From assembly GCA_002269645.1 (NCBI GenBank), contig NIVC01003013.1, positions 61,428 to 125,427 of the forward strand: DNA of 64,000 nucleotides, in the 5' to 3' direction. Numbering within the stretch: position 1 is the first letter of the stretch; each line of letters opens with the position of its first letter. Made by a program: the position numbers and the translations under genes. Under the pieces are notes generated by a model. That model was not told the DNA's origin, ran no database searches, and was given only the letters and a program-made list of their open reading frames with translations. The DNA comes from Macrostomum lignano (lineage: Eukaryota). Below are positions 56,330 through 64,000 of the stretch, one piece after another.

Positions 56330-56572
56330 ATGTTTCCAGTTGTCTCTCCGGGTTCTTATTACAAAGCGGACGAGCCTAATTACAAGAGCAAGTACCGATG
56401 CAAACTTGAATGCAGCGAGTACATGAGAAAATATTGGCCCGGCATGGATATCAATGTCCCTAATATTAATCAAGCTCTCCAAAGACACTGGTTTCATAAG
56501 TATGGAGTAACCTACGTAAAAGATTACGACAGCTACTATAACTTTGCAGAAATCATTAGGCAGTTGCGTTAA
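56330..56572 (+). CDS. Small (80 aa) ORF of unknown function at the left edge of the viral coding block
   Basis: Intact ORF with the same AAAAATG start context as the other viral genes. Tyr/Trp/Cys/His-rich. I do not recognise the family. Confidence 0.55.
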   Translation: MFPVVSPGSYYKADEPNYKSKYRCKLECSEYMRKYWPGMDINVPNINQALQRHWFHKYGVTYVKDYDSYYNFAEIIRQLR

Positions 56573-56579
56573 AAAACCG

Positions 56580-56670
56580 AAAAACCAAAAGGCCAAAAGG
56601 CCAAAAGGCCAAAAAGGCCAAAAGGCCAAAAGGCCAAAAAGGCCAAAAGGCCAAAAAGGCCAAAAGGCCG
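56580..56670. repeat. (GGCCAAAA/GGCCAAAAA)n short repeat between convergent viral genes
   Basis: About 10 copies. Confidence 0.9.
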
Positions 56671-56914
56671 AAATCGTTTGCATTTTGGCCTTCCCTCGAG
56701 ACGGAATTCTTCCTCGGCTGGGCTCAGTTAAAGTGAAAATCTCTCTCCCCCACGCGCGCTGCGCCCACACACATACACTCCCCTCTCCCCCGCGCACCCG
56801 ACGCCCGCGCCCACAAACTGTCAGAATGGGGTAAGAGATTTTGAGTACACATGCGCGCATTTTTTTCATACCACTCTATTCTCTGCAAGCATACTTAAAA
56901 GGGAACGCATTTTC

Positions 56915-57778
56915 TCACATTCTCTCAATGATCAACGTCAATACAAACTCTTCACCGTTGAAATCAACACCCACCCCATCTTCAGTCTCAAACTGTAGCA
57001 CAATCTCGTGAATCTCCTTATTACTCAATACAACTCTTTTCACTGGATTTGGTTTCTCTACCACCATCTGTCCTCCAGCTACAGAGTTGGAGATGTTGTA
57101 CAAAATATTAGTTCGCTTTCCCTTAAATACCCAATCAAGACTGAGATTAGTTCTGATTAGAATATTCAAACCCTTTACAATGTCTGCTATATTGGGTGCT
57201 AAGAACAAACAGCGTACACTTTCCCGGGCCATGATAACGGCCCCCGTCGCTTGAGTGGCGGTCCGCGCCGCGGATTCTGCCTTATAAACTTTCTTCTCGA
57301 ATCCTAATTCCCTATACCAAGTGTCATCTTTAAACTCAACCTCCGCATTTTTGTGAACTTGCATGACCACTCTCATTACAGTGAGATCATAGGATAGTTT
57401 GACAGGGAACAGTTTTTTATCTGGCTTACTCGCATCAGGTGTCTCAAAATGGCCTCTTTTAGTAAAAACGTTTTCTAGAAAGTAATTGTAGGTATCCACA
57501 CTTTGCGTGCTAACAGGGAATACCACAGGTTCTGCTGCTGCACCTTTCCATTTGTAATAAAACTTATTATTTGCTGCCGACACATTGGGAACGTTTGACC
57601 AACCAGTGAAGTCGTTAAGATAGACATGATAATTAGCACCTGGATCCAGGCTAATCGCCTGCTCTAATTTTTGAATAAATATCCCGTTTGAGTCATTAAT
57701 TCGCCCAGTTATTGTAATAGGAATGCTCTCCTTGGAGTGCGAAATAATATTATTTAGTCTTTCAGCAATCGCTTCCAT
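56915..57778 (-). CDS. Minor capsid protein (penton) of Polinton/adintovirus type, ~287 aa
   Basis: Family-like pattern: W-S-N-V-P-N-V...NNKFYY, ELGF, ILYN...V-A-G-G-Q-M-V-V-E-K-P-N, D-F-N-G-E-E-F-V-L-T-L-I-I. Located directly downstream of the MCP. ATG at 57778 in an AAAATG context. Confidence 0.8.
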   Translation of the reverse strand: MEAIAERLNNIISHSKESIPITITGRINDSNGIFIQKLEQAISLDPGANYHVYLNDFTGWSNVPNVSAANNKFYYKWKGAAAEPVVFPVSTQSVDTYNYFLENVFTKRGHFETPDASKPDKKLFPVKLSYDLTVMRVVMQVHKNAEVEFKDDTWYRELGFEKKVYKAESAARTATQATGAVIMARESVRCLFLAPNIADIVKGLNILIRTNLSLDWVFKGKRTNILYNISNSVAGGQMVVEKPNPVKRVVLSNKEIHEIVLQFETEDGVGVDFNGEEFVLTLIIERM

Positions 57779-57799
57779 TTTTCCACCCACAAAAAATAT

Positions 57800-58742
57800 T
57801 TAAACTTTACTGGATGAATTGTTGATCATGTTAAGCTTCACCTTCCTCTCAAATGCATAGATAATGTACAAGTCCACGGGTGTTGCGTCAGTCCTCTCAA
57901 TGTTAGTCACGATATTCACAGGGCTGTTATCAGTAGGCATTTGTCTGGCAGACACATCAGCGCCAAACATTGGATATAGAGTTCCATATTGAAGAGCTGT
58001 GATAGCAATTCCGTTGTTCTCTTTCACAGCCAAGTCGACCAACTCGCTGTAAAATTTGCTAATCTTGTTCTGACTGAAATTTCCATTTTGTGGCAGTGCA
58101 GGGTAAAGATTATCACTGATTTCATGCTGAATGGACCGCACGTCTCCATGCATGTAGCGTATAATGCTATTTGGGTTTCTCATGCTAATAATAATATACC
58201 TTGGATTGCTGCATGATCCCTCTTTGATGCAGATGTTTGTTCTAGTTTCGTTACGCTCATCTCGACACATGTAGGCTGTGTATGCAACATCAATGTCCTT
58301 CTCTATTGCCTTAAGATAATCTGCTTTTAGTGCAGTCTTTGGCTCAATGATTTCCAAATACAGCTCGATTCCGGTTAGCTTCACATCCATCCTAGTGTGG
58401 TCCGCCCCAGTCCACAACACTCTACTGCGATCATCTCTAGTCATCTTAAAGGTGTAGCTAAAGTTACTAGTCAGTCGATTAAATGTATTACAGAATCCAC
58501 TCATAAATCTCAGTGGTACAAATACATCAACAGACCGATACAGCGGGTTTTTAGCAGCATCATCAGCACCTTGCAATGCATAGTTGTATCTCTTCTTCCT
58601 CTTTTTATAGCCACTGTCATTGATGTCTCCTTCTTTTTCATCTGCAATAAAACCCGCACCGCTTCCCAACTGAATAAAATCAGGATTCTCGATCAAACTC
58701 AAAGTTAATTTTGTAGAAAACTGGTGTCAGTGGGTCGTTCAT
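57800..58742 (-). pseudogene. Major capsid protein (double jelly-roll, hexon-like) with a disrupted or truncated N-terminus
   Basis: The 300-aa open frame (58702-57800) has VPL..GFC, PRYIII, N-LYP and LYPMFG.DVS patterns typical of Polinton MCPs. The AAAAAATG start at 58742 is out of frame, and the product is short for this family. Confidence 0.75.
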
Positions 58743-62252: not shown

Positions 62253-62278
62253 TTTTTTTATTTTTTCTAGAGAAAAAA

Positions 62279-62906
62279 ATGGCCAACAAAATTCTCTATA
62301 CGATCAGTCTCAATACGTTGAACCTAAAATACCGACAGCACCAAACCAATGGCACCGAATTCGAACACACAAAGCCTGAATGCACCGAATCTGAATGCAC
62401 CTCAATATGAGCAACAAAAACTCTACCCCGTCATTACTTGTAACTCTCAGCAGTTTCGACTAGTGGAGATTCAAAAAATGCGAGATGATCTTGAAAAAAA
62501 TATTTTCCACAACACAAAGAAAATTAAGCGCTATGACAGCCACTGTAAATTTTTCGACTACAGCAATATGATTCTAGGATCTGTGTGTGTTCTAACTGGG
62601 TCTGCTGCAGCTGTCTCAGTGTTGCCAGTCATCACAGCCCCAATCGCAATCCCGCTCGGCTCTGCTGGTGCTGCATGTGGACTTATTTCAGCAATTACTG
62701 GAGCATTAGCGCGAAACAGGCGAAAAAAACTAAAGCAGCTACAGGAGAAGCAAGTAAAAGAGAAAGGGGTGCACACTTCAATCATAGGGTACATTTCAAG
62801 GGCAATCGAGGATAAGTTCATTTCAGAGGATGAGTTCAAAACCATTCAGGATCTTTATGAACAATCAATTCGAATGAACTTGAACATGGTCGGACTGATG
62901 ACATGA
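62279..62906 (+). CDS. Conserved Polinton/adintovirus hydrophobic-hairpin membrane protein (resembles the class called GasderminX, from recall); 5' end has two -1 frameshifts
   Basis: LYP...QQFRL.EI...LE, two hydrophobic segments, then IS.AIED.FISEDEF. The AAAAAAATG at 62279 joins 62349 through a PTAP-containing frame. Confidence 0.65.
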
Positions 62907-63004
62907 GTCAGCTGAGAAATGAACTCGAAAAGTTCTTCAACATTATGCGGAAAGAAGGACAACGAGAAATTCGGTAAGGACAACGAGAAATGCACAATGA
63001 ACCC

Positions 63005-63404
63005 CTATGAAACACAGGTACGAATAATTTCCTTGTAGGTCTTTCGTGTTTTGGTCATTGCAAACAAAACAGTCATACACAGCTCACCGCAAATATCACT
63101 GCTAAGACCTTGAGAATAAAGTCTGAGCGATAAATTTTTTTTATTCTTTTTCCCTTCATATAATTTCTTAGCTCTTCTGGTACTGCCGCCCATAGCTATC
63201 GAAGTAATAACACTTGTGCTTGCGATCGGATCAATCACCCAGCAAACCCAATGAGATCCTGGCTTATCGGTGGTGTCAAAGTTCATGATGCCGCATTCCT
63301 TTCTTAGAGGAAATCAGGCAGAGTGTCCCTCATAAATATTCCTCTAAAAGTTTGGGATTTTCCAGTTCGTTAGCCAAATCTTCCAGAAAGTTATTTGTCG
63401 TCAT
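63005..63404 (-). pseudogene. Adenain/Ulp1-like cysteine maturation protease, frameshifted as written
   Basis: Reconstructed as MTTNNFLEDLANEL..FRGIFMRDTLP..ECGIMNFD..GSHWVCW..YYFDSYG..Q..DICGELC, with catalytic H, D, Q and C present. Needs ~5 single-base restorations. Confidence 0.85.
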
Positions 63405-63476
63405 TTTTTGAGTTTTATTAAACTTTCTCTTAAACCTAAACCCAATCTCCTAATCTCCTAACCCAACCTCAACCTC

Positions 63477-64000
63477 CTAAACCCAATCTCCTAAGCCTAA
63501 TCTCCAATGCCCGAACGGTAGACTGTTAATATTGTCATCAAAAATGAATCTCTTGTTATCTGCACCTGACAGACCAATCTTCTTTTGCTGAATTGTGTGA
63601 AATAATATGGTTTTAGATTGTAGCTTTGAGAACTCATGTGATGTCTTTTTGTTGCAATTCAAGCGTCTCTGTATTCAGCTTCATTAATTTCCTTCCTAAC
63701 CACACGTTTCGGAATTCCCTTTGATTTTTTAATTGGGTCTGACGACTCACATTTAAAAATAGGACTTTGCTCTCAACCCAATGAATTCAGTGATTATGTC
63801 ACCAGCAATCTCGTCCTTCATTTTCCCAATCACTTCTTGTTAGTAGCGTCAAACACTTGATCGCCCATTCTGTGTCCTGCAAGATTCATCATACTCAGAC
63901 AAGTCAAACAAATCTTTTTGCTGCAGCATGTCCTGATAAATGTCTTCTGTTTGAATGTCCATAATAAAACTGTCTGTGTCGGTGTACAAGAGTTTCATTT
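63477..64000 (-). pseudogene. polB: Protein-primed family B DNA polymerase, C-terminal part (continues off the right edge), frameshifted as written
   Basis: LLYTDTDSF (motif C), NKKVIGKMKDE, EFIGLRAKSY, KSKGIP, and the C-terminal KKIGLSGADNKR..SLPFGH. Confidence 0.92.

What the first reader, a model, noticed from the sequence alone, without database searches (positions are those of the whole stretch)
56330..64000. Endogenous adintovirus-like Polinton with a full virion-morphogenesis module
Seen gene order: ORF80(+), penton(-), MCP(-), PZ-like(+), amphipathic-helix protein(+), ATPase(+), coiled-coil protein(+), membrane-hairpin protein(+), protease(-), pPolB(-). Established: this gene set defines Mavericks/Polintons that can probably form virions. 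The structural proteins look divergent from the family patterns I recall, so this may be an undescribed lineage in this host (inference).
Basis: partly seen in the sequence, partly recalled or inferred. Interest (0 to 1): 0.7.

Follow-up and report, generated by a model that had tools for sequence, protein, structure and literature searches.

The report
Broken copy of young Maverick family
This is the left half of a virus-like Maverick (Polinton) transposon, one of about 160 closely related copies in this animal genome assembly; this copy has lost part of its main capsid gene, but the family's capsid genes are conserved, so the family likely spread recently as virus particles.

Summary
The gene order is real, and this is a Maverick/Polinton (adintovirus-type). 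The element starts at 55803 (terminal inverted repeat, TIR), not 56330. It is cut by the contig end at 64000. Four uninserted paralogous host sites fix the boundary and the 6-bp target. The penton model matches mavirus penton (E 3.5e-9); a sister copy's 428-aa capsid folds as a double jelly roll (E 6e-16). Sister copies supply TIRs, 6-bp target duplications (17 of 22 end pairs), rve integrase, pPolB with an endonuclease VII insert, PLA2 and protein X. There are 322 exact termini, about 160 copies. 'Full module' is wrong for this copy: the capsid gene lacks codons ~14-130, and PZ-like, ATPase, protease and PolB are frameshifted, the last ones probably by assembly error. The family is young, under purifying selection (capsid pN/pS 0.10) and recombining. 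Its capsid has only unnamed relatives (77% or less). Virions and expression are not shown. Earlier scan notes describe other Polinton families in this genome; their group I intron and GGNCC loss are absent here. Verdict: new member of a known kind.

The parts
55797..55802 (+). 6-bp target site GCCATA (left copy of the expected duplication)
   Evidence: Four paralogous host sites in C124 read GCCATA once and run on into host DNA
55803..56572 (+). Left TIR, about 770 bp, starting AGTAG
   Evidence: Matches both ends of sister copies; 322 exact 23-base termini, reversed control 0
55842..56139 (.). 82-bp tandem repeat inside the TIR (3.6 copies)
56330..56572 (+). ORF80, an 80-aa gene inside the TIR, present at both ends in several copies; function not assigned
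   Evidence: pN/pS 0.33 over 12 ORFs; no Pfam, PHROGs or homologue hit
56915..57778 (-). Penton (single jelly-roll minor capsid protein), 287 aa, open
   Evidence: Model pLDDT 75.2; mavirus penton E 3.5e-9; Z 12.8, rmsd 7.2, 239 aligned
57800..58742 (-). Double jelly-roll major capsid gene, broken: codons ~14-130 of 428 are missing
   Evidence: sister protein model pLDDT 91.6, DJR capsid hits E 6e-16; junction seen only in the window among 40 scored
58773..59968 (+). PZ-like gene (label recalled), split into two frames here, a single ~403-aa ORF in many sisters
59985..60362 (+). 125-aa ORF with xxGxG motifs and a possible amphipathic helix; inferred protease-processed virion protein
   Evidence: 43 of 500 shuffles as high
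60406..60509 (.). 21-bp tandem repeat before the ATPase
60555..61353 (+). A32-like packaging ATPase, in three frames here
   Evidence: Pox_A32 E 1.2e-4 in window, 3.6e-6 in a sister; GSSGSGKT, IVFDD, RGRH
61370..62185 (+). Coiled-coil ORF, variable between copies; its frame runs on to 62410 here
62349..62906 (+). Two-helix hydrophobic hairpin protein (PW-like, label recalled)
   Evidence: hydropathy 2.03 and 1.68
63005..63404 (-). Adenain-like cysteine protease, frameshifted here
   Evidence: Peptidase_C5 E 8.3e-5 in a sister; adenain E 0.0016; SHWV and QGLSSDICG in window
63477..64000 (-). C-terminal end of protein-primed PolB, fragmented and cut by the contig end
   Evidence: YTDTDS in window; PF03175 E 3.7e-15 and Endonuclease_7 E 3.5e-5 in sisters

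Best explanation
This is the left 8.2 kb of an integrated Maverick/Polinton whose capsid gene is partly deleted, belonging to a family of about 160 young copies that likely spread through an extrachromosomal, probably encapsidated phase. Shown: TIRs, 6-bp target duplications, the gene set, capsid folds, purifying selection and mosaic copies. Inferred from established Polinton biology: the rve integrase excises and inserts the linear DNA, leaving 6-bp duplications; pPolB copies it from its protein-primed ends; the A32 ATPase packs it into a shell of double jelly-roll hexons and pentons; the adenain protease matures the small xxGxG proteins; PLA2 helps membrane entry. Inferred: co-replicating genomes recombine, giving block mosaics and unlike ends. 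This copy could not make its own capsid and would move only if complemented. Its dense right-end frameshifts are likely consensus errors at the contig end.
For: Boundary and target site from empty paralogues. TSD matches in 9 of 10 testable pairs (7 of 8 distinct sites) and 8 of 12. 322 termini. Median length 16.3 kb over 22 hand-picked facing pairs. Folds. rve E 2.6e-8, PLA2 E 1.2e-13, Adeno_PX E 8.2e-7. pN/pS: MCP 0.10, ATPase 0.12, INT 0.17, protease 0.19, penton 0.29. Private MCP substitutions 0-6 of ~1287 in 20 of 21 copies. Mosaic: 20 runs over 405 sites against a permutation mean of 127, p<=1e-4. Short indels rise from 0 in 1799 bp to 18 in the last kb, 12 of them in homopolymer runs. 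Contigs of four runs differ from the window at the 12 short indels shown.
Against: No virion, free DNA or transcript was shown. 0 of 21 copies has an unbroken PolB frame (three were only partly covered), so no autonomous copy is demonstrated. pN/pS uses only intact ORFs and non-independent, uncorrected pairs, and may reflect selection before the last amplification. The runs test is dominated by one divergent PZ block. The assembly holds some sites two or three times, so 160 overcounts insertions. No relative was found in viral contigs or metagenome contigs. 5 of 22 end pairs lack a matching TSD.
Confidence: 0.8

Rival explanations
1. The same family, but it has lately spread only as an intracellular transposon. 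The capsid genes are relics of an earlier viral phase, and the mosaics come from gene conversion between chromosomal copies.
For: No virions have been seen for Maverick-Polintons (10.64898/2026.06.19.733378, passages). There is a high copy number, TIR-only minis and a PolB-less palindromic copy with a TSD. No viral contig relative.
Against: MCP has the lowest pN/pS of nine genes, 0.10, even among copies with pS of 0.105 or less. Capsid relatives at 71-77% sit on short unnamed contigs from ENA, JGI and Logan. PMC8097293 (passages) reads such selection as evidence of reinfection.
Confidence: 0.3
2. The family is now wholly dead: all frameshifts, PolB included, are real decay.
For: 0 of 21 unbroken PolB frames. 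The window's MCP deletion looks private. One sister carries a nested LTR element.
Against: Most PolB breaks are scattered (74 bins in single copies, 18 in 2-4 copies). In the window, short indels outnumber substitutions near the contig end. Copies carry very few private substitutions.
Confidence: 0.15
3. It is a Polinton-like virus or a mavirus-type virophage rather than a Maverick.
For: The best penton fold hit is mavirus; Sputnik and mavirus capsids rank high for MCP.
Against: Identities are only 7-13% and TM about 0.4-0.65, as for many DJR viruses. pPolB, rve, adenain and TIR/TSD occur together, the Maverick set. PolB has the same domain pair as insect Mavericks (PMC5803895, passages).
Confidence: 0.04

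Closest known systems
Mavericks/Polintons (Polintoviricetes), as defined in 10.1101/2023.08.22.554363 and PMC8097293
   Same: 13-25 kb size, TIRs, 6-bp TSD, pPolB, rve integrase, MCP, penton, ATPase, protease, purifying selection on core genes, copy number in the hundreds in some hosts.
   Different: Different gene order from vertebrate Mavericks. The capsid lies on a long branch with unnamed relatives only. A coding gene sits inside the TIR. The right arm carries variable cargo.
Alpha adintoviruses / group 2 (PMC8502044; 10.64898/2026.06.19.733378)
   Same: pfam03175-type PolB, PLA2 and a protein-X domain.
   Different: PLA2 and protein X are separate genes on opposite strands flanking the integrase, not a fused PLA2X. 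Clustering with the named exemplars could not be tested.
Spodoptera frugiperda Mavericks 1 and 2 (PMC5803895)
   Same: PolB with DNA polymerase B2 (E about 1e-14 to 1e-17) plus endonuclease VII, PLA2 gene, integrase, ATPase, protease.
   Different: Different arrangement; no chromo domain detected on the integrase here; no sequence comparison was possible.
Other Polinton families in this genome (earlier scan notes e1-8581174, e1-8580718)
   Same: Same genome; multicopy Mavericks with a PLA2 gene.
   Different: No group I intron (0 Rfam hits in 14 right-arm loci) and no GGNCC depletion (14 seen, 14.2 expected).

Membership tests
Maverick/Polinton | Protein-primed family B polymerase | tested here: met
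   PF03175 E 3.7e-15 in a sister; YTDTDS in window, motifs A and B in a sister; no unbroken frame in 21 copies
Maverick/Polinton | Retrovirus-like (rve) integrase | tested here: met
   rve E 2.6e-8 in a sister, 345 aa; beyond the contig end for the window copy
Maverick/Polinton | TIRs of 100-1500 bp | tested here: met
   about 770 bp
Maverick/Polinton | 5-8 bp target site duplication | tested here: met
   6 bp in 17 of 22 end pairs; the window's right end is missing, its target is fixed by empty sites
Maverick/Polinton | Length 13-25 kb | tested here: met
   median 16.3 kb, 20 of 22 picked pairs within range
Maverick/Polinton | Double jelly-roll MCP | tested here: met
   on a natural sister ORF; partly deleted in the window copy
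Maverick/Polinton | Single jelly-roll penton | tested here: met
Maverick/Polinton | A32-like ATPase and adenain protease | tested here: met
Maverick/Polinton | Virion formation | not testable with these tools
   needs particles or protected DNA
Alpha adintovirus / group 2 | pfam03175-type PolB | tested here: met
   same domain pair as the Sf Mavericks
Alpha adintovirus / group 2 | N-terminal OTU domain on PolB | not tested
   both folding jobs went to the capsid proteins; no Pfam hit on the N-terminal frames
Alpha adintovirus / group 2 | Fused PLA2X gene | tested here: not met
   PLA2 (162 aa) and protein X (151 aa) are separate ORFs; filed only as Alpha-like
Alpha adintovirus / group 2 | PolB and hexon cluster with named exemplars | not testable with these tools
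   no named references at hand; motif search of the paper's supplement found nothing
Mavirus-type virophage / PLV | Virophage- or PLV-type MCP | tested here: inconclusive
   fold hits mix iridovirus, Sputnik, PBCV-1, MELD and adomavirus entries at 7-12% identity
Intron-bearing Polinton family of earlier scan notes | Group I intron in PLA2 and GGNCC depletion | tested here: not met

The most novel reading that the evidence does not exclude
A still-active, particle-forming Maverick lineage with its own deep capsid clade lives in this animal as a recombining swarm: copies swap gene blocks and ends before integrating, carry a selected gene inside the TIR, exchange right-arm cargo, and throw off fold-back defective genomes that the integrase still inserts. 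It would be a host in which Maverick virions and recombination could be caught directly.
Probability: 0.3. Interest if true: 0.65.

Novelty: new member of a known kind. Interest (0 to 1): 0.32.

Why it matters
Mavericks carry full capsid modules, yet the papers read here state that their virions have not been observed. A young family with about 160 copies and strongly conserved capsid genes is a good place to look for natural particles, free linear DNA and new insertions. The window copy itself is an ordinary defective member. Its value is as a pointer to the family, to its recombination, and to a fold-back derivative.

Tried and rejected
Adjacent window: none, the contig ends at 64000. Sister haplotig holding this same insertion: the flank occurs only in the window and at four empty sites. 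Expression: no RNA holder listed; two runs guessed to be RNA cover all 30 bins, but they may hold DNA and no silent-stretch control was obtained, so nothing is concluded. Whether reads carry the MCP deletion was left untested. ORF80: no Pfam, PHROGs or homologue hit; the Atlas does not hold it. PZ-like, 125-aa, coiled-coil, hairpin and cargo ORFs: no informative family; a PC4-like look of one cargo ORF was recalled and Pfam did not confirm it. MCP relatives in viral contigs and metagenome contigs: none confirmed. PolB against phages and PDB: nothing informative. Names for 10 MCP relatives: none beyond 'hypothetical protein'. Atlas look-alikes of homologue P0004 are hypothetical proteins, some with DJR domains. 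A shared intron or programmed frameshift in PolB: rejected, every region is spanned by some copy's open frame. Dating by comparing the two TIRs: rejected, ends differ 0.2-11% while MCP shows 0-0.5% private change in the same copies, one 1.25%. Supplement motif search of PMC8502044: 0 hits in 4.0 million characters of an 11-MB zip, so its sequence files may not have been read; bioRxiv supplements are closed, and either could hold a named relative. The MCP tree is the quick tree, 45 rows of my choosing, with the careful search unfinished. Print searches; none listed a description of this family or of a palindromic Maverick, and most listed papers were seen only as listings.
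Full report
Observation. The window ends at the end of contig C3013, so the rest of this copy is not in the assembly. A search with 56900-58750 gave 461 candidates; 40 were scored, and 38 match nearly the whole stretch at 95-100%. I therefore read the missing half from sister copies, each stretch analysed as fetched.

Boundary. The element begins at 55803 with AGTAG. The 33 bases before it occur at four more places in C124, and all four read GCCATA once and continue as host DNA. This fixes the junction and the 6-bp target. Sister copies carry the same repeat at both ends, about 770 bp with ORF80 inside it. 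Six-base duplications match in 9 of 10 testable pairs (one more lacked an end; two sites are assembled twice, so 7 of 8 distinct sites) and in 8 of 12 further pairs. An exact 23-base terminus occurs 163 + 159 times, reversed control 0: about 160 copies, fewer true insertions. Twenty-two facing pairs picked from the first 100 rows have a median length of 16.3 kb; four short pairs (0.6-3.8 kb) were left out of that count.

Gene identities. The window's 287-aa ORF folds (pLDDT 75.2, 14 sequences) like mavirus penton (Foldseek E 3.5e-9; Z 12.8, rmsd 7.2, 239 aligned, tied with PBCV-1 and close to adenovirus and Sputnik pentons). A natural 428-aa sister MCP folds at pLDDT 91.6 (91 sequences) and matches double jelly-roll capsids (E 6e-16). 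Pfam on sister ORFs gives Pox_A32, Peptidase_C5, DNA_pol_B_2, Endonuclease_7, Adeno_PX, rve and Phospholip_A2_4; the DJR domain hit is below its cut-off. Catalytic motifs are present. PZ-like and PW-like are recalled labels with no library support. The amphipathic helix of the 125-aa ORF is not significant (43 of 500 shuffles).

State of this copy. MCP matches only residues 131-428; 349 bases of the sister are replaced by 5. The junction was found only in the window among 40 of 466 candidates scored. PZ-like is in two frames, ATPase in three, and protease and PolB are fragmented. Short indels against the nearest copy rise from 0 in 1799 bp to 18 in the last kilobase, 12 of them in homopolymer runs, against 9 substitutions. 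Contigs of four runs differ from the window at the 12 short indels shown (43 not shown). This fits consensus error at a contig end, but private mutations are not excluded.

The family. Intact ORFs show pN/pS of 0.10 (MCP, 11 ORFs), 0.12 (ATPase, 9), 0.17 (integrase, 6), 0.19 (protease, 6), 0.25 (PLA2, 7), 0.28 (PZ-like, 8), 0.29 (penton, 11), 0.29 (protein X, 8) and 0.33 (ORF80, 12); broken ORFs were dropped and pairs are not independent. Private MCP substitutions are 0-6 in 20 of 21 copies and 16 in one, so insertions are young. Against activity, 0 of 21 copies has an unbroken PolB; most breaks are private and no position is broken in all copies. The window copy switches nearest relative along its length: 405 informative sites form 20 runs against a permutation mean of 127, driven largely by the PZ block. 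The two ends of one copy differ by 0.2-11%, with uneven coverage. That is more than their age allows and suggests ends of different origin.

Mechanism. By established Polinton biology (inferred here): integrase-mediated excision and insertion with 6-bp duplications, protein-primed replication by pPolB, ATPase packaging into a hexon-penton shell, adenain maturation, PLA2-aided entry. Selection on the capsid is the main sign of a recent particle phase; PMC8097293 (abstract and passages) argues the same for fish Mavericks. The window copy would need complementation. I put 0.8 on this overall account; its weakest step, a recent particle phase, is about even odds, the alternative being recent spread without particles.

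Comparison. All defining Maverick features listed in 10.1101/2023.08.22.554363 (passages and section 8) are met at family level. PMC8502044 (passages and section 3.1) defines Alpha by a pfam03175 PolB and links PLA2X to the Alpha capsid module; here PLA2 and protein X are separate genes, so I file it as Alpha-like only. PMC5803895 (passages) reports the same PolB domain pair in insect Mavericks. 10.64898/2026.06.19.733378 (passages) says phospholipase is common in group 2 and that no virions are known. 10.1101/2025.04.19.649669 (passages) reports Orthopolintovirales insertions in flatworms. PMC11161782 and PMC5499653 (passages) gave background only. The capsid's relatives are 68-77% identical (7 proteins), then 43-44% (2 proteins), then about 30% or less. 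None of those, nor 10 looked up, bears an informative name. In a quick tree of 45 rows they form one clade on a long stem (1.01, SH-aLRT 100).

Host and earlier notes. The window holds P-type ATPase and ACE exons, and the holders are one coded organism. Earlier AI notes call the host a flatworm and describe Polintons with group I introns and GGNCC loss. I did not test the host label. The intron and the depletion are absent here, and look-ups by sequence and place returned nothing, so this is probably a different family.

Verdict. A real but defective copy of an unnamed, young, recombining Maverick family: new member of a known kind, interest 0.32.

Noticed in passing
G000:C276:289398-300645, C1652:28604-39932, C3945 (same flanks): An 11.3-kb palindromic derivative: the left arm (TIR to 125-aa ORF) and its inverted copy, 99.7-99.9% identical, around a 1.75-kb spacer. 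It has no PolB or integrase but a matching 6-bp TSD. The junction occurs in these three contigs only among 40 scored. It resembles a fold-back defective genome.
   Followed up: partly
L074, L075, L076, L077: Short derivatives with two termini, 0.6-3.8 kb; two share one matching TSD.
   Followed up: partly
L051:3110-3985, L028:3967-4641, L057:8110-8565: Different ORFs of 97-225 aa between PLA2 and the right TIR in different copies, with no family assignment.
   Followed up: partly
L012:2196-6094: An LTR retrotransposon (gag-protease, RT, RNase H, integrase) nested in the C1122 copy.
   Followed up: no
L080/L081, L090/L091: A second capsid subfamily (MCP 83%, penton 78% identical) joined to 97-99% identical genes elsewhere; the PZ-like gene also has alleles at 57-100%.
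   Followed up: partly
window 53772-55802 and G000:C124:236936-294163: The target lies just after a 24-bp satellite array; the same host unit occurs four times in C124, 16-25 kb apart.
   Followed up: partly
window 523-17896 and 40298-49007: Exons of a P-type ATPase (PMCA-like, label recalled) on the minus strand, and ACE-like peptidase M2 exons on both strands in inverted arrangement.
   Followed up: no
window 36620-39831: A GC-rich tandem array giving long repetitive open frames on both strands.
   Followed up: no
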